Source of the DNA: a virus
Lineage: Duplodnaviria > Heunggongvirae > Uroviricota > Caudoviricetes
Length of the DNA stretch: 4,270 nucleotides
Virus record (IMG/VR): IMGVR_UViG_2706794685_000016
Direction: 5' to 3' (one strand)
Shown: piece by piece, positions 1-4,270 of the stretch
Layout: each line of letters opens with the position of its first letter
Position numbering within the stretch: position 1 is the stretch's first letter
Made by a program: the position numbers and the translations under genes
Notes under the pieces: generated by a model
Databases searched by the model: none
Seen by the model: only the letters and a program-made list of their open reading frames with translations
What the model was told of the DNA's origin: nothing

Positions 1-282
1 ATGTCGTCGGTAATGTGTGATGGTCTGTTAGTGGGTAATGCCGAAATTATTCCGTTCAGTCCGCGCAGGTATCTTTATCACGCCTATCTGGCATATATGA
101 GGGCACACGGATTCGGTAAACCTGTAACACTGACGCGCTTCGGTAAAGATATGCCGGGGGCAATGGCGGAATATGGCAGGGAGTATATGAAACGGAAAAC
201 GAAGCACGGTTTGCGTTCAAATGTGACCCTGACAGAGGATTCAGAAGACTGGATGCCATCATGTGCAATAGGTCACAAATGA
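1..282 (+). CDS. Putative 3' end of a replication initiator gene (P4 alpha-like primase/helicase origin-binding region); possibly a complete 93-aa ORF instead
   Basis: Seen: frame open from nt 1 (ATG) to TGA at 280-282. Inference: it lies immediately upstream of an iteron array whose core TGTTCACC is the type I iteron bound by the C-terminal domain of phage P4 alpha. Function is assigned by position, not by a recognised motif in the protein. Confidence 0.4.
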   Translation: MSSVMCDGLLVGNAEIIPFSPRRYLYHAYLAYMRAHGFGKPVTLTRFGKDMPGAMAEYGREYMKRKTKHGLRSNVTLTEDSEDWMPSCAIGHK

Positions 283-309
283 CGATGGAAAAAATTAAAC
301 TTATGGAAT

Positions 310-534
310 AACTGTTCACCCTGCAATAAATGTCTTTTATATCAGTATATTATAGGGTGAACAGTTATTTATGAACTGTTCACCAAACTATTCACTGTTC
401 ACCTTTTTGATTCTTTATTGAGCTTTAAGGGTGAACAGTGGTGAACAGTTGGTGAATAGTTTTTGTGAAACTGTTAACCCATTAACATCATGAATAAAAA
501 GGGAAAATTGCAAAAGGTGAACAGGTGAAGGGTT
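310..534. repeat. Iteron array in an AT-rich intergenic region (origin-of-replication-like; ori/crr-type)
   Basis: Seen: forward copies of GGTGAACAGT(T) at 356-366, 430-439, 440-450, 451-461 (1 mismatch), 516-525 (1 mismatch), 524-534 (degenerate); reverse copies AACTGTTCACC at 310-320, 374-384, 394-403 and 469-479 (1 mismatch). Copies 356-366 and 374-384 form a perfect 11-bp inverted repeat with a 7-nt spacer; 430-461 is three head-to-tail copies. Flanked by A/T-rich sequence (481-560). Established: TGTTCACC is the P4 ori/crr type I iteron. Confidence 0.7.
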
Positions 535-575: not shown

Positions 576-821
576 GTGACAACGAAGCACGCCAAAAAAC
601 CACAATCTCACGCCCTTGATTTGACAGAACACTGGCTGAGGGTGGCGATAAAAATCATCGACCGCAACGCCGGGGAAGGATACGCGAAAGCACATCCCGA
701 ACTGATAAGCGCATTCATGACCACGACGGCGGCAAACTTTGCCACGCTGACAGAACGGGAGATTGCCGAAGCGGAACAGGTGACAACCATCAACGTTAAA
801 ACCGGAGAGCAGACAGCATGA
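576..821 (+). CDS. Hypothetical small protein (81 aa), GTG start
   Basis: Seen: ORF with GTG start preceded by GAGG; stop TGA (819-821) overlaps the ATG (818-820) of the next gene in an ATGA arrangement, indicating translational coupling. No recognisable motif. Confidence 0.5.
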   Translation: MTTKHAKKPQSHALDLTEHWLRVAIKIIDRNAGEGYAKAHPELISAFMTTTAANFATLTEREIAEAEQVTTINVKTGEQTA

Positions 822-1201
822 CAGCACAGATAGCGGCTTACGGGCGGCTGGTGGCTGACCCGCAGTTAAAGACCACCAGCAAGGGTACGCAAATGACGAT
901 GGCGAGTATGGCGGTTCCCCTGCCGTGCAGCCAGGCAGATGACGGAACGGCGACGATATGGTTATCCGTCCTGGCGTTTGGCAGACAGGCTGACGCACTG
1001 GCAAAGCACCAGAAAGGCGAGCTGGTGAGCGTGGCGGGTAACATGCAGGTAAGCCAGTGGACAGGCCAGAACGGAGAAACGCGGCAGGGCTGGCAGGTTA
1101 TCGCAGACAGTGTAATCAGTGCCAGAACGGCGCGACCGGGCGGTAAAAAAGGCCAACAGGGGCAGGCCACTGATGCACTGAACAGGGCCAAACAACAGGC
1201 G
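818..1201 (+). CDS. SSB-like single-stranded DNA-binding protein (OB fold), 3' end lost in assembly gap
   Basis: Seen: ATG preceded by GGAG (804-807). The translation aligns by eye with E. coli SSB: IAAYGRLVADPQL versus VILVGNLGQDPEV, and TIWLSVLAFGRQADALAKHQKGELVSVAGNMQVSQWTGQNGETRQ versus [46 protein letters not shown], followed by a Gly/Gln-rich linker (RPGGKKGQQGQ). The reading frame beyond 1201 runs through Ns and is not interpretable. Confidence 0.7.
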
Positions 1202-1465
1202 NNNNNNNNNNNNNNNNNNNNNNNNNNNNNNNNNNNNNNNNNNNNNNNNNNNNNNNNNNNNNNNNNNNNNNNNNNNNNNNNNNNNNNNNNNNNNNNNNNN
1301 NNNNNNNNNNNNNNNNNNNNNNNNNNNNNNNNNNNNNNNNNNNNNNNNNNNNNNNNNNNNNNNNNNNNNNNNNNNNNNNNNNNNNNNNNNNNNNNNNNNN
1401 NNNNNNNNNNNNNNNNNNNNNNNNNNNNNNNNNNNNNNNNNNNNNNNNNNNNNNNNNNNNNNNNN
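1202..1465. other. Assembly gap (264 N)
   Basis: Seen: run of n characters; content and true length unknown. Confidence 1.
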
Positions 1466-1479
1466 ATTTACAAAAAACA

Positions 1480-1522
1480 GGCGCAAAAAAAAGCGCCCCG
1501 ATGGTGCCACCGGAGGCGCTTT
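1480..1522. terminator. Overlapping alternative hairpins (possible terminator for the gene ending in gap 1)
   Basis: Seen: GGCGC(1480-1484)-A8-GCGCC(1493-1497); alternatively AAAGCGCC(1490-1497)-N17-GGCGCTTT(1515-1522). On the minus strand the first hairpin reads GGCGC-T8-GCGCC followed by TGTTTTTTG. No strong U-tract on the + strand, so terminator function is uncertain. Confidence 0.3.
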
Positions 1523-1613
1523 GTCAGCGACAAAGGATACTGCCACTACCGAAATGATGAGTCTTAATTGTGCTGGCTTGGCAATAATTAGTCAATTCTT
1601 TTGCTGGTATGAC

Positions 1614-1643
1614 AAAAATCAGAAAACACATAATCTGATTTTT
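1614..1643. promoter_or_regulatory. Perfect 10-bp inverted repeat (operator candidate) upstream of the morphogenesis genes
   Basis: Seen: AAAAATCAGA (1614-1623), 10-nt spacer AAACACATAA, TCTGATTTTT (1634-1643). It lies about 75-100 bp upstream of the 1717 start and contains a CATAAT hexamer (1629-1634) in the spacer. Confidence 0.4.
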
Positions 1644-1716
1644 AGATAGAAAATGATTTATTTACCAGTTTTATCGATCAATAATGATGCCCGTTAATCA
1701 TAACGGAGGCAGACTT

Positions 1717-1911
1717 ATGCCAGAGAACAACAGCAGAAAACCGGATAAAAGTGCAACAGTGCACATAGACGCCGGAACTATGGAGAAGCTCGAACGCTAT
1801 CAGCAGTTCATTAAAAGTCATCACCCTGGAATGCCAGTACCCACGAAAGGGCAGATTGCGAGAAGCGCGGTTGAATACTGGTACAGGGCAACGTTAGGAG
1901 CCTGGCTATGA
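1717..1911 (+). CDS. Hypothetical small protein (64 aa from the ATG at 1717)
   Basis: Seen: strong SD GGAGG (1705-1709) 7 nt upstream of the ATG at 1717; the in-frame ATGs at 1684 and 1687 lack an SD. Stop TGA (1909-1911) overlaps the protease ATG (1908-1910) in an ATGA arrangement. No cysteines, so not an Ogr/Delta-type zinc finger. Confidence 0.55.
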   Translation: MPENNSRKPDKSATVHIDAGTMEKLERYQQFIKSHHPGMPVPTKGQIARSAVEYWYRATLGAWL

Positions 1912-3053
1912 AAACATGGTTTTCCATTAAGGCTATGGCTGATGTTGTACATGTACGCATTTATGACGAGATCGGCGGGTACGGTGTAAAAGCATCGGCA
2001 CTTACTGACGAGATCAACGCGTGCGGTAATGTGCCTGAAATCCATCTTCGCATCCATTCACCTGGTGGCGACATCTTTGAAGGGCTGGCTATCTATAACG
2101 CCCTGAAAAATCATCCGGCAAAGAAAATTGTACACATTGAAGGCATGGCGGCTTCTATGGCCTCGTTTATTGCCATGTGTGGCGATCACATCGTTATGCC
2201 TGAAAACGCGATGATGATGATACATGCCCCCCGTGGTGTTACTGCCGGAGTGTCGGGCGACGTTCGCCGCTTTGCTGACCTGATGGACAAGCTGGGCGAC
2301 ACGATGGCGGAAACCTACGCCGGAAGAACGGGCAGGAGCAAACAGGAAATCACCGCCATGATGGAGGCGGAAACCTGGATGGATGGCAATGAGTGTAAGG
2401 CTAATGGCTTCGCAGATGAGGTTATACCCGCGATTACAGCAATGGCCAGAATTGAATCAAAACGAATCGGAGATTTTTCGAATATGCCGGAAAATATTAA
2501 AAGCATGATCAGCCAGAAAACTGGCAGCGGAGAACAGGAACGACTCAACGGGATACGTGAATTGTTTGGCACGTTCAATGGAAGATATAACGACCTGGCT
2601 ATAAGTTGTCTTGCTGATTCAGGCTGTAGCGTTGAGGATGCACGCGAACGCCTTTTACTCACTATGGGTAAAGAATCGACACCGACAAACAAAACCACCC
2701 CCGCAAATCTTTACTACGCGTACACGGATAACGGCAACATAACCGGCGATGCAATGCGTCAGGGGCTTAATGCGCGTCTGGGACATGAACAGGCAGAACG
2801 CGGCAACCCTTACGCCATGATGAGCCTTTTCGATATGGCACAGGCATCATTAACCCATCGCGGCATAAGCACAGGCAGCTACAGCACACGCTCGCAGATA
2901 GTAAACGCGGCATTCACCCACAGCAGCAGCGATTTTACTTATATCCTTGCTGGTGGTGCTGAAAAATCCGTGAACACAGCGGCGAAACGTTCCGCCAGTG
3001 GACGAAAAAAGGTTCATTGTCAAACTTCCATGAGGCACGTCGTGTTGGCCTGA
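1908..3053 (+). CDS. ClpP-family prohead (head maturation) serine protease with about 190-aa C-terminal scaffold/linker-like extension
   Basis: Seen: AGGAG (1896-1900) 7 nt before the ATG. The N-terminal half carries ClpP signature motifs in the right order: IHSPGGD (cf. ClpP INSPGG), GMAASMASF with the putative catalytic Ser codon at 2154-2156 (cf. GQAASMGAF), MIHAP with the putative His codon at 2223-2225 (cf. MIHQP), and WMDGNE...FADEVI (cf. the Asp-containing C-terminal region). Established: ClpP-like proteases of this kind process HK97-type proheads. Confidence 0.85.
   Translation: MKTWFSIKAMADVVHVRIYDEIGGYGVKASALTDEINACGNVPEIHLRIHSPGGDIFEGLAIYNALKNHPAKKIVHIEGMAASMASFIAMCGDHIVMPENAMMMIHAPRGVTAGVSGDVRRFADLMDKLGDTMAETYAGRTGRSKQEITAMMEAETWMDGNECKANGFADEVIPAITAMARIESKRIGDFSNMPENIKSMISQKTGSGEQERLNGIRELFGTFNGRYNDLAISCLADSGCSVEDARERLLLTMGKESTPTNKTTPANLYYAYTDNGNITGDAMRQGLNARLGHEQAERGNPYAMMSLFDMAQASLTHRGISTGSYSTRSQIVNAAFTHSSSDFTYILAGGAEKSVNTAAKRSASGRKKVHCQTSMRHVVLA
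3005..3011 (+). other. A_AAA_AAG heptamer in phase with the protease ORF (candidate -1 frameshift site or homopolymer indel hotspot)
   Basis: Seen: frame-0 codons are CGA(3003-3005) AAA(3006-3008) AAG(3009-3011), so the heptamer A AAA AAG is in the phase required for tandem slippage. The -1 frame is open from 2963 and continues for 216 codons into the capsid ORF; frame 0 stops at 3051-3053. Established: A_AAA_AAG is the E. coli dnaX slippery sequence. Confidence 0.35.
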
Positions 3054-3659
3054 ATGGCTTCTCTACATTAAACAAAGTGCCGGAAGGCGCGGAATATAAA
3101 TACATCACCACCAGTGACCGTGGCGAACCAATCGCGCTGGCAACTTACGGAAATATTTTCAGCATTACCCGACAGGCGATTATTAACGATGACCTGAATC
3201 AGTTAACAGTTATCCCACAGGCAATGGGGCGAGCAGCCGCCAGAACGGTGGGTAATCTGGTTCATCTGGTGCTGACAGGAAACACAAAGCTTTCTGACGG
3301 TATACCGCTGTTCAGCAAAAAACACGGAAATGATATTGATAACGGAGTCAGCACTACAGGGCTTGGCATTGCACGCCGTGCAATGCGCACACAGAGGGAT
3401 GAAAACGGTGAGGTGCTGAATATTGTGCCAAAATTCCTTCTTGTTCCTGCGGCTCTGGAAGACAGAGCGTTGCAAATGGTTAACTCAACCACGCCTTTCG
3501 GTGCCGATACAAACAGTGGTTCATATAACCCGTACCACAAACAACTGGATATTATTGTCGATCCCCGCCTTGATGAAGTCAGTGATAAGCAATGGTACAT
3601 GCTTTCAGCACAGGGAACGGACACAATTGAGGTGGCTTATCTTGACGGTAATGACGAGC
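3017..3659 (+). CDS. Major capsid protein domain (HK97-fold-like), 3' end lost in assembly gap; no credible independent start
   Basis: Seen: long ORF in the -1 frame relative to the protease. Its only candidate start is TTG at 3017 with a poor SD; the first in-frame ATG is about 70 codons in. It contains PKFLLVPAALEDRAL, resembling the N-P-x-D-W-A-A-L type motif of HK97-family capsid proteins. Position directly after a prohead protease supports the call. The frame after 3659 runs through Ns. Confidence 0.6.
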
Positions 3660-3933
3660 NNNNNNNNNNNNNNNNNNNNNNNNNNNNNNNNNNNNNNNNN
3701 NNNNNNNNNNNNNNNNNNNNNNNNNNNNNNNNNNNNNNNNNNNNNNNNNNNNNNNNNNNNNNNNNNNNNNNNNNNNNNNNNNNNNNNNNNNNNNNNNNNN
3801 NNNNNNNNNNNNNNNNNNNNNNNNNNNNNNNNNNNNNNNNNNNNNNNNNNNNNNNNNNNNNNNNNNNNNNNNNNNNNNNNNNNNNNNNNNNNNNNNNNNN
3901 NNNNNNNNNNNNNNNNNNNNNNNNNNNNNNNNN
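3660..3933. other. Assembly gap (274 N)
   Basis: Seen: run of n characters; content and true length unknown. Confidence 1.
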
Positions 3934-3988
3934 AGATTCTTTACAAAAAATCTGAGCTTGTTTTCTTAACCAGCGCGATGGGGGCACA

Positions 3989-4270
3989 ATGACAGAAGCC
4001 GAAATACTGGGATTAATCCGCCGCGTCGCCGGAATCAGCCAGCAGGTTGACGAACAGGCCATGCAACCGGACAGCGTGACCGCTGAAAATTATGCGCGTG
4101 TGGTGGATGAGGTAATGCGCCGTGACGGTATTGAGCTTAACGGCGTGGATATGCGCAACATACGAACCAGAGTTCTTGAGTTGCTGGCATACCGTCGCCG
4201 TTCTCAACAACGGAGGGAGAGCGCGAAAAATACTTACCAGTGGAGGAAGCCGGAGCACTTACGGCGGTAA
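3989..4270 (+). CDS. Hypothetical protein (93 aa) downstream of the capsid gene; possibly a head-completion or connector-type protein by position only
   Basis: Seen: ATG at 3989 preceded by a G-rich stretch GGGG (3981-3984); complete ORF ending with TAA at 4268-4270. No recognised motif; the functional guess rests on gene order in HK97-like head modules. Confidence 0.45.
   Translation: MTEAEILGLIRRVAGISQQVDEQAMQPDSVTAENYARVVDEVMRRDGIELNGVDMRNIRTRVLELLAYRRRSQQRRESAKNTYQWRKPEHLRR

What the first reader, a model, noticed from the sequence alone, without database searches (positions are those of the whole stretch)
2963..3053. Protease-scaffold ORF and capsid ORF joined only through an in-phase A_AAA_AAG slippery heptamer
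The capsid domain has no convincing start of its own, and the -1 frame it occupies opens at 2963, overlapping the protease ORF by 90 nt. Within that overlap sits A_AAA_AAG (3005-3011) in exactly the phase needed for -1 slippage. Three readings are possible: (a) programmed -1 frameshifting producing a protease-scaffold-capsid polyprotein alongside a shorter frame-0 product ending at 3053; (b) a single-base indel error in the A6 run of a draft assembly, the true gene being one continuous protease-capsid fusion; (c) a genuine inactivating mutation in a decaying element. Reading (a) would make the abundant capsid protein the frameshift product, which is atypical, so (b) is at least as likely.
Basis: partly seen in the sequence, partly recalled or inferred. 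Interest (0 to 1): 0.7.

Follow-up and report, generated by a model that had tools for sequence, protein, structure and literature searches.

The report
Broken capsid gene, not programmed frameshift
The two overlapping reading frames are one phage-satellite head gene (protease fused to capsid protein) broken by a real 13-base deletion in Shigella sonnei, and the "slippery" A AAA AAG is an ordinary Lys-Lys codon pair that this deletion put out of frame, so this is an ordinary pseudogene.

Summary
Frame 0 ends at 3053, the capsid frame is open from 2963, and A_AAA_AAG at 3005-3011 is in the -1-slip phase. The window is Shigella sonnei DNA, identical or nearly so to Ss046 and many draft assemblies. 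It lies in a small integrase/AlpA/primase satellite island.

In 206 E. coli genomes and 49 other species, the homologous gene is one continuous ORF, the ClpP-like prohead protease/major capsid protein fusion (NCBIfam NF045540). The window lacks 13 nt (GCTTGCAGGCTGG) at 2971^2972, 33 nt upstream of the heptamer. Restoring them gives a 626-aa ORF identical to an intact S. sonnei allele.

The A6 run is unchanged in intact homologs, where it reads in frame as AAA AAA (Lys-Lys).

- **Assembly error:** excluded. The same 381-aa product occurs on at least 1000 contigs, including a finished genome. A5 and A7 variants are absent from the collection.
- **Programmed frameshifting:** unsupported. There are no stimulators, and homologs conserve neither the overlap nor the motif. 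The trans-frame product would lack the conserved LxGW segment inside the capsid domain.
- **Decay:** the island's primase is split by an IS.

This is reading (c), with a different lesion at a different site.

The parts
1..282 (+). C-terminal remnant (93 aa, Pox_D5 domain) of the satellite's primase gene. In S. sonnei the gene is split by an IS3-family insertion just upstream of the window.
   Evidence: Pfam PF03288 2.6e-11. E. coli primase aa 1-498 and 506-584 map to L080 3304-4824 and 6113-6346, with HTH_Tnp_1/rve genes between them.
818..1240 (+). Satellite SSB gene (140 aa in unmasked copies). Its 3' end is hidden by the N-mask that starts at 1202.
   Evidence: Pfam SSB 3e-16. Called as 140 aa in L080-L086.
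1717..1911 (+). 64-aa ORF immediately upstream of the head gene, overlapping its start by 4 nt.
   Evidence: Called in all S. sonnei loci. No family match.
1908..2971 (+). Undamaged 5' part of the protease/scaffold/capsid fusion gene: ClpP-like protease (aa 44-173), linker/scaffold region, and about the first 21 residues of the capsid domain.
   Evidence: Pfam and NCBIfam. 100% identical to residues 1-351 of the intact S. sonnei allele P0003.
2971..2972 (+). Junction of the 13-nt deletion (GCTTGCAGGCTGG in E. coli homologs; removes Leu-Ala-Gly-Trp plus 1 nt). This is the true frame break.
   Evidence: DNA alignments with L001, L002, L093, L003, L005 and L006. Re-inserting the 13 nt gives a 626-aa ORF identical to P0003.
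2972..3053 (+). Out-of-frame tail of the truncated product (NTAAKRSASGRKKVHCQTSMRHVVLA, then TGA).
   Evidence: Translation. Absent from every homolog.
3005..3011 (+). A_AAA_AAG. These are ancestral in-frame AAA AAA G(GT) = Lys-Lys-Gly codons, which became an in-phase slippery heptamer only through the upstream deletion.
   Evidence: Same A6 run in intact L001 and L093, read as ACG AAA AAA GGT. 10 of 49 homologs have A6 here; the rest use AAG or other residues.
2972..3775 (+). Remainder of the capsid domain, now in the -1 frame relative to the 5' part. The stop lies at 3773-3775 inside the N-mask (read from L082). Gene callers start it at TTG 3017 (252 aa).
   Evidence: Pfam Phage_capsid_4. 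Unmasked sequence from L082. The 252-aa call occurs on at least 1000 contigs. Weak SD before the TTG: -3.8 kcal/mol against -6.5 for the real start.
3989..4270 (+). 93-aa conserved last ORF of the satellite.
   Evidence: Present in the E. coli islands L001, L002 and L093. No family match.

Best explanation
The region is a pseudogene. The ancestral gene is a single ORF encoding a ClpP-like prohead protease, a scaffold/linker and an HK97-type major capsid protein in one polypeptide. It is the only structural gene of a roughly 9-kb integrase/AlpA/primase phage satellite of Escherichia and Shigella.

In the dominant Shigella sonnei lineage, a 13-nt deletion at window 2971^2972 removed four conserved codons (Leu-x-Gly-Trp) plus one base. 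The deletion lies inside the N-terminal part of the capsid domain. Ribosomes therefore read 26 wrong codons and stop at 3053, and the rest of the capsid domain is stranded in the -1 frame.

The A_AAA_AAG heptamer is the pre-existing Lys-Lys-Gly codon string AAA-AAA-GGT, which the deletion shifted by one base. Its 'perfect phase' follows directly from the direction of the shift, not from an evolved signal. A small fraction of ribosomes may slip there incidentally. The product would carry 11 unrelated residues in place of 15 conserved ones, and there is no sign that it is used.

Shown here: the deletion, its reality across assemblies, the continuity of homologs, the lack of stimulators, and the IS damage to the island. 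Inferred: loss of function, and the low level of any slippage.
For: (1) Homologs are continuous.
- All 55 listed rows from 206-209 E. coli genomes are annotated as one 'ClpP-like prohead protease/major capsid protein fusion protein'.
- A single-frame tblastn HSP spans the junction in 49 of 49 loci that carry both domains. These come from Kluyvera, Yersinia, Pasteurellaceae, Shewanella, Pseudomonas and others.

(2) The 13-nt gap is unique to the window in DNA alignments.

(3) Re-inserting the 13 nt yields 626 aa identical to the S. sonnei protein P0003, which is on 113 contigs.

(4) NCBIfam NF045540: the intact allele scores 863 bits against a cut-off of 475. The window ORF scores 442.7, below the cut-off.

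(5) The deleted segment is conserved: S-[VLI]-[LMI]-x-G-[WY], with Gly in all 49 species and Trp in 47 (Tyr in 2). It lies inside Phage_capsid_4, residues 331-623.

(6) The lesion is real.
- The 381-aa and 252-aa products are each on at least 1000 contigs (2904 index blocks), all named S. sonnei, including complete chromosome CP000038.1.
- The junction sequence is identical in 7 of 7 loci fetched and in 4 IMG/VR contigs.

(7) The A-run is not the lesion.
- A6 is identical in intact L001 and L093.
- The A5 and A7 products are absent from the collection.

(8) No frameshift stimulators.
- Downstream folding z-scores are -0.67 and -0.20.
- The best hairpin starts 17 nt after the motif at -9.7 kcal/mol.
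- The upstream anti-SD duplex is -3.0 kcal/mol, against -6.9 for AGGGAG.

(9) The island is decaying.
- The primase is split by an IS3-family element.
- IS1 lies next to the integrase.
- IS21 lies downstream in Ss046.
Against: - A_AAA_AAG is among the most slip-prone heptamers in E. coli (PMC4066793). Its occurrence in phase within a 27-codon tail has an empirical prior of only about 1%, or about 6% for any heptamer with Y = A/T, so the coincidence is not trivial.
The exact 13 bases are therefore inferred from E. coli homologs and from the identity of the restored protein.
- No expression or proteomic data were available, so loss of function is inferred rather than measured.
Confidence: 0.92

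Rival explanations
1. Programmed -1 ribosomal frameshifting at A_AAA_AAG. The element deliberately makes an abundant protease-scaffold protein ending at 3053, plus a frameshifted protease-scaffold-capsid polyprotein.
For: - The in-phase heptamer is present, and it is the only one in the ORF.
- The motif is highly shift-prone in E. coli when stimulated (PMC4066793).
- The prior for such a motif in the tail is low, about 1-6%.
Against: - The overlap exists only in the S. sonnei deletion allele. 49 species and more than 200 E. coli genomes have one ORF.
- The motif is in-frame Lys-Lys in those genes and varies synonymously or by residue.
- There is no downstream structure or upstream SD.
- Without stimulators, heptamers gave at most about 10 times a 0.055% background in a reporter (PMC4066793).
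- The product would replace the conserved LAGWEHSGETFRQWT with NTAAKRSASGR.
- The major capsid protein would be the minor product.
- The island's primase is destroyed by an IS.
Confidence: 0.02
2. Sequencing or assembly error: a single-base miscount in the A6 homopolymer, or some other artefact, so that the true gene is continuous in this strain.
For: Homopolymer miscounts are common in draft assemblies, and adding one A does produce a 622-aa ORF.
Against: - The lesion is a 13-nt deletion outside any homopolymer.
- A6 is the length found in intact homologs.
- The identical allele is in the finished Ss046 chromosome and in thousands of independent assemblies.
- The A7 (622 aa) and A5 (374 aa) products are absent from about 15 billion proteins.
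- Intact (626 aa) and deleted alleles both exist as discrete, recurrent S. sonnei alleles.
Confidence: 0.01
3. Fortuitous leaky rescue. The deletion is real, but incidental slippage on A_AAA_AAG restores enough full-length fusion protein for the allele to remain partly functional. This would be a 'saviour' frameshift, as discussed in PMC5009743.
For: - The slip would restore the capsid frame exactly.
- Unprogrammed slippage on AAA-AAA runs can be high in some contexts: 25-60% at C-AAA-AAA in pDEST17 (PMC1851650).
Against: - The restored protein still lacks the conserved Gly and Trp and neighbouring conserved residues of the capsid N-terminal region.
- There are no stimulators.
- The satellite cannot replicate with a split primase, so selection has nothing to act on.
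- The deleted and intact alleles are otherwise identical in protein sequence, which indicates a recent lesion rather than a maintained arrangement.
Confidence: 0.05

Closest known systems
NCBIfam NF045540 (scaf_prot_MCP1), ClpP-like prohead protease/major capsid protein fusion protein, as annotated in E. coli satellites and lambdoid prophages
   Same: Same domain order and near-identical sequence. The restored gene scores 863 bits (cut-off 475) and is 92.6% identical to E. coli WP_032313484.1. The island context is also the same: Icd-like, DUF4222, primase, SSB, fusion gene and a 93-aa ORF.
   Different: The window copy is split by a 13-nt deletion into 381-aa and 252-aa pieces, and the larger piece scores below the family cut-off (442.7 bits).
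dnaX / IS911 / IS3-type programmed -1 frameshift sites of E. coli (A_AAA_AAG plus stimulators)
   Same: Identical slippery heptamer in the correct phase.
   Different: No upstream SD-like element, no downstream hairpin or pseudoknot, no conservation of motif or overlap in homologs, and no plausible function for the two products.
Frameshifted pseudogenes of Shigella (genome decay with IS expansion, established knowledge for S. sonnei Ss046)
   Same: A small out-of-frame deletion fixed in a clonal lineage, sitting in an island also hit by IS1, IS3-family and IS21 elements.
   Different: Nothing substantive. The only unusual point is that a slippery heptamer happens to sit in the shifted tail.
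Gram-negative PICI-type and P4-like phage satellites (SatelliteFinder PICI model: integrase, AlpA, primase-replicase, capsid-like gene, terS; PMC10085698)
   Same: Integrase, AlpA-type regulator, D5-type primase and a capsid-like gene, with cos-region-like sequences shared with lambdoid phages.
   Different: No terS-like gene in the S. sonnei copy (a DUF1441 gene is present only in the relative L002). It lacks the portal, adaptor and terL genes required for cf-PICI. Helper dependence was not tested.

Membership tests
ClpP-like prohead protease/major capsid protein fusion (NCBIfam NF045540) | N-terminal ClpP-type head-maturation protease domain | tested here: met
   PF00574 3.7e-33, residues 44-173. 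NF045542 scores 202.9 bits against a cut-off of 120.
ClpP-like prohead protease/major capsid protein fusion (NCBIfam NF045540) | C-terminal HK97-type major capsid domain | tested here: met
   PF25209 1.8e-41 on the -1 frame of the window. It spans residues 331-623 in the intact allele.
ClpP-like prohead protease/major capsid protein fusion (NCBIfam NF045540) | Both domains in one ORF, with the whole protein above the curated cut-off (475 bits) | tested here: not met
   The window ORF scores 442.7 bits. After restoring 13 nt the product (identical to P0003) scores 863.2 bits. The window copy is therefore a pseudogene of this family, not an intact member.
Programmed -1 ribosomal frameshift site | In-phase X_XXY_YYZ slippery heptamer within the frame overlap | tested here: met
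   A_AAA_AAG at 3005-3011, phase verified.
Programmed -1 ribosomal frameshift site | Downstream stimulatory hairpin or pseudoknot about 5-9 nt after the motif | tested here: not met
   z = -0.67 for 3012-3090 and -0.20 for 2975-3060. The best local hairpin starts 17 nt downstream at -9.7 kcal/mol.
Programmed -1 ribosomal frameshift site | Upstream internal Shine-Dalgarno-like stimulator (as in dnaX and IS911) | tested here: not met
   The best anti-SD duplex in the 20 nt upstream is -3.0 kcal/mol, against -6.9 for AGGGAG.
Programmed -1 ribosomal frameshift site | Conservation of the heptamer and of the two-frame arrangement among homologs | tested here: not met
   49 of 49 two-domain homologs and the E. 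coli copies are single-frame. The A6 run is present in 10 of 49 and always as in-frame Lys-Lys codons.
Programmed -1 ribosomal frameshift site | Detectable trans-frame protein at a set ratio | not testable with these tools
   Needs a reporter assay or mass spectrometry.
Assembly or sequencing artefact | The lesion is not reproducible across independent assemblies, or lies in an error-prone homopolymer | tested here: not met
   At least 1000 contigs (2904 blocks), including finished CP000038.1. 7 of 7 loci and 4 IMG/VR contigs share the junction. The deletion is 13 nt of non-repetitive sequence. A5 and A7 variants are absent.
PICI-type phage satellite (SatelliteFinder core: int, alpA, pri-rep, capsid-like gene, terS) | Integrase, AlpA-type regulator, primase-replicase and capsid-like gene in one orientation within about 10 kb | tested here: met
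   L080 and L081 gene tables. Intact E. coli island L093.
PICI-type phage satellite (SatelliteFinder core: int, alpA, pri-rep, capsid-like gene, terS) | Small-terminase-like or packaging-redirection gene | tested here: not met
   None in the S. sonnei island or in L001 and L093. A DUF1441 gene is present only in L002.
PICI-type phage satellite (SatelliteFinder core: int, alpA, pri-rep, capsid-like gene, terS) | Induction and packaging by a helper phage | not testable with these tools
   There is only indirect evidence: cos-region-like sequence shared with lambdoid phages.

The most novel reading that the evidence does not exclude
The 13-nt deletion, by chance, turned a fused protease-capsid gene into a two-product gene. 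It would make mostly free protease-scaffold, plus a small amount of a 622-aa fusion through unprogrammed -1 slippage on A_AAA_AAG, and this leaky product would keep some capsid-related activity in S. sonnei. That would be a natural snapshot of how a programmed frameshift site might originate from an indel next to a Lys-Lys codon pair.
Probability: 0.03. Interest if true: 0.45.

Novelty: already known. Interest (0 to 1): 0.1.

Why it matters
It matters mainly as a correction. An in-phase slippery heptamer in a frame overlap is not evidence of recoding unless the overlap and the motif are conserved in homologs. Here a single alignment with intact relatives moves the lesion 33 nt upstream and explains the "perfect phase" trivially.

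For annotation, the S. sonnei ORFs called "protease/scaffold protein" (381 aa) and "prophage protein" (252 aa) should be merged as one frameshifted pseudogene of the NF045540 family. The intact/deleted allele pair could serve as a minor lineage marker in S. sonnei.

The satellite family itself carries a single protease-capsid fusion gene flanked by two lambdoid cos-like sequences. It is biologically more interesting than the frame break, but it is not what the finding was about.

Tried and rejected
- **DNA of the intact S. sonnei allele (P0003).** A gapped pattern built only from window sequence found just the deleted allele in IMG/VR (4 contigs) and nothing in JGI metagenomes. The 13 bases are therefore taken from E. 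coli homologs and checked only through identity of the restored protein.
- **Genome-contig scan.** It did not recover the source genome or close relatives (best 59% aa). It did give 49 species-level two-domain homologs, which I used for conservation.
- **Rfam scan of the unmasked locus.** One sub-threshold hit, to a plant microRNA precursor family (MIR5380, 32.1 bits against a gathering score of 150). It lies in the GTGAACAG repeat region, I take it as spurious, and it does not touch the frameshift region.
- **PDB sequence search.** Only ClpP proteases matched; there is no solved relative of the capsid part. The structural role of the deleted LxGW segment therefore remains inferred (N-terminal part of the capsid domain).
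- **Independent initiation of the capsid piece at TTG 3017.** Considered and rejected. The SD is weak (-3.8 kcal/mol) and the product would lack about 40 N-terminal residues of the capsid domain.
- **Transcriptional slippage on A6.** Considered and rejected from general knowledge: efficient slippage in E. coli needs longer runs. Not tested.
- **Minus-strand ORFs over the region (2850-3038, 2935-3111).** They have no support and were not pursued.
- **Literature search for this locus in S. sonnei.** Nothing specific was found.

Full report
**What is in the window**

The 4270-nt window has two N-masked stretches, 1202-1465 and 3660-3933. On the plus strand it holds:
- a 93-aa ORF with a Pox_D5 (primase C-terminal) domain at 1-282;
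- an 81-aa ORF at 576-821;
- an SSB gene from 818;
- a small ORF ending at 1911;
- a 381-aa ORF at 1908-3053 with a ClpP-type protease domain;
- in another frame, open from 2963, a Phage_capsid_4 domain that runs into the second mask;
- a 93-aa ORF at 3989-4270.

- a TGA at 2960-2962 precedes the capsid frame;
- frame 0 stops at 3051-3053;
- AAAAAAG at 3005-3011 reads CG[A AAA AAG] in frame 0.

**Where the frame really breaks**

Megablast against 5426 complete E. coli genomes found the region in 206-209 of them at up to 89% identity. Every listed row is annotated as one CDS, [quoted passage not shown].

I aligned the window with three of these (L001, L093, L002) and with Kluyvera, Yersinia and Buttiauxella copies. 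The alignment shows one gap, unique to the window. Thirteen bases (GCTTGCAGGCTGG in L001 and L093) are missing between 2971 and 2972.

The A6 run and its neighbours (TGG ACG AAA AAA GGT TC) are identical in the intact E. coli genes. There they are read in frame as Trp-Thr-Lys-Lys-Gly.

A 13-nt loss moves downstream sequence into the original +1 frame. Any pair of in-frame homopolymer codons then becomes an in-phase X_XXY_YYZ.

**Origin, and whether the lesion is real**

An exact look-up of the 381-aa product found it in 2904 index blocks and on at least 1000 contigs, all named Shigella sonnei. These include the complete Ss046 chromosome CP000038.1.
- Seven loci were fetched. All contain the same junction and A6 sequence, and one (L082) is 100% identical to the window across 1466-3659.
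- Four IMG/VR contigs also carry the junction.
- The same 90% protein cluster holds 626-aa S. sonnei proteins annotated as the intact fusion (P0003 on 113 contigs, P0006 on 4).
- Re-inserting the 13 nt into the unmasked S. sonnei sequence gives a 626-aa ORF identical to P0003 residue for residue.
- The proteins expected from an A7 run (622 aa) or an A5 run (374 aa) are absent from the roughly 15-billion-protein collection. The 252-aa capsid fragment, as called by gene finders, is again on at least 1000 contigs.

An assembly error is therefore excluded, and so is an A-run miscount in particular.

**Family-wide conservation**

A scan of one genome per species returned 77 loci. In 49 of these (L001-L049 counting the two E. 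coli loci), a single tblastn HSP in one frame covers residues 1 to about 623 of the intact protein. The remaining loci match only the protease domain.

In the protein alignment the deleted residues sit in a conserved motif, S-[VLI]-[LMI]-x-G-[WY]. Gly is present in all 49 and Trp in 47, with Tyr in the other 2.

Pfam places the capsid domain at residues 331-623 of the intact allele. The break at residue 352 is therefore inside the capsid domain, not at a protease-scaffold/capsid boundary.

At the Lys-Lys position, 10 of 49 homologs have AAA AAA. Others have AAG AAA, AAG AAG or AAA AAG, or different residues (KT, RT, HK, TR, SR and so on). There is no nucleotide-level constraint beyond coding.

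NCBIfam NF045540 scores the intact allele at 863 bits against a cut-off of 475. It scores the window's 381-aa ORF at 442.7, below the cut-off.

**Test of the frameshift-signal hypothesis**

The heptamer is present and is the only in-phase one in the ORF. The other features of a programmed site are missing:
- RNA folding downstream gives z = -0.67 for 3012-3090, and z = -0.20 for 2975-3060, which includes the motif.
- The best local hairpin begins 17 nt after the motif at -9.7 kcal/mol.
- The strongest anti-SD pairing in the 20 nt upstream is -3.0 kcal/mol, against -6.9 for the dnaX-type AGGGAG.

Sharma et al. 2014 (PMC4066793) measured heptamers in a reporter. Without stimulators they gave 2.1 to 10 times a background of 0.055%, that is, well under 1%. 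Unprogrammed slippage on AAA-AAA can be much higher in over-expression contexts (PMC1851650), so some trans-frame product cannot be excluded.

That product would read ...AEKSV-NTAAKRSASGR-KKGSLSNF... where the intact protein reads ...AEKSV-LAGWEHSGETFRQWT-KKGSLSNF.... It would lack the conserved segment.

In 50 intact family genes, the empirical chance that a 27-codon tail in this shifted frame holds any XXX-YYY (Y = A/T) pair is about 6%. For AAA-AAA-G it is about 1%. This is a mild coincidence noticed after the fact.

**Context: a decaying satellite**

In S. sonnei (L080, L081) the order is: integrase, IS1, AlpA, small ORFs, DUF4222, primase (D5_N/DUF5906), an IS3-family element (HTH_Tnp_1 + rve), the 93-aa primase remnant that opens the window, an ORF, SSB, a 64-aa ORF, the broken head gene, small ORFs, and then clpS-clpA. 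Ss046 has an extra IS21.

The E. coli primase maps to the two S. sonnei fragments on either side of the IS.

An intact E. coli island (L093) runs from integrase to the 93-aa ORF in about 9 kb, and the fusion gene is its only structural gene. This resembles Gram-negative PICI-type satellites (PMC10085698). There is no terS-like gene in this copy, and helper dependence is untested.

With replication already disabled, nothing would maintain a recoding signal in the S. sonnei copy.

**Verdict**

The mechanism is a fixed 13-nt deletion that makes a pseudogene of a known fusion-gene family, in an IS-riddled satellite of S. sonnei. Reading (c) is right in kind, and readings (a) and (b) are rejected. 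Interest is low and novelty is nil, apart from the small cautionary value.

**Limits**

- I could not retrieve the nucleotide sequence of the intact S. sonnei allele.
- No expression data exist here.
- The structural role of the deleted segment is inferred, because the PDB search returned no capsid relative by sequence.

Noticed in passing
window 1202-1465 and 3660-3933 (masked); read from L082 1376-1639 and 3834-4107: Both masked stretches hold a copy of a roughly 110-nt sequence. It consists of a terminator hairpin and then TCCTGGTGGGGGKGGCCTGTCCACGGGGCGGG..GCGGAAAAARGCGYATTTTT, about 85% identical between the copies. It matches 22 lambdoid phages at 76-90% identity (Stx2 phages, 1720a-02, CP-1639, mEp460). 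In those phages it lies between the lysis genes and the terminase genes, and within about 190 nt of the right end of the linear mEp460 record. This suggests a cos-region-like sequence. The satellite thus carries two such copies flanking the 64-aa ORF and the head gene. There is no Rfam match, and folding is unremarkable (z = -1.08).
   Followed up: partly
window 300-530, especially about 310: An intergenic region is rich in GGTGAACAG / CTGTTCACC repeats, which look like iterons and may be the satellite origin. The window has one fewer 10-nt unit (ACTGTTCACC) than all seven other S. sonnei loci.
   Followed up: partly
window 1-282; L080 4893-6049: The first ORF of the window is the C-terminal stump of the satellite primase. 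In S. sonnei the gene is interrupted by an IS3-family element. IS1 sits beside the integrase, and IS21 follows the island in Ss046.
   Followed up: yes
protein P0010 (S. sonnei SRS04835.1, 376 aa): One S. sonnei isolate has the allele with the LAGW codons intact, but it ends ...WTKKGEVA* immediately after the Lys-Lys-Gly codons. This is a separate disruption at that point, possibly an IS insertion or a rearrangement. It is not explained by any change in A-run length.
   Followed up: no
L001 7003-10639; L083 4801-9602: In some E. coli and S. sonnei genomes the satellite lies directly next to a lambdoid prophage head module: gpA-type terminase, portal, and a 675-aa ClpP/capsid fusion of the same family. 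This prophage is a candidate helper type and a possible source of the satellite's head gene.
   Followed up: no
L084, L085 (S. sonnei drafts): The 3' end of the island (window 3934-4270 or 4115-4270) is duplicated a few kb away, next to a second integrase/IS1 or next to clpS. This suggests tandem or rearranged satellite copies in some isolates.
   Followed up: no
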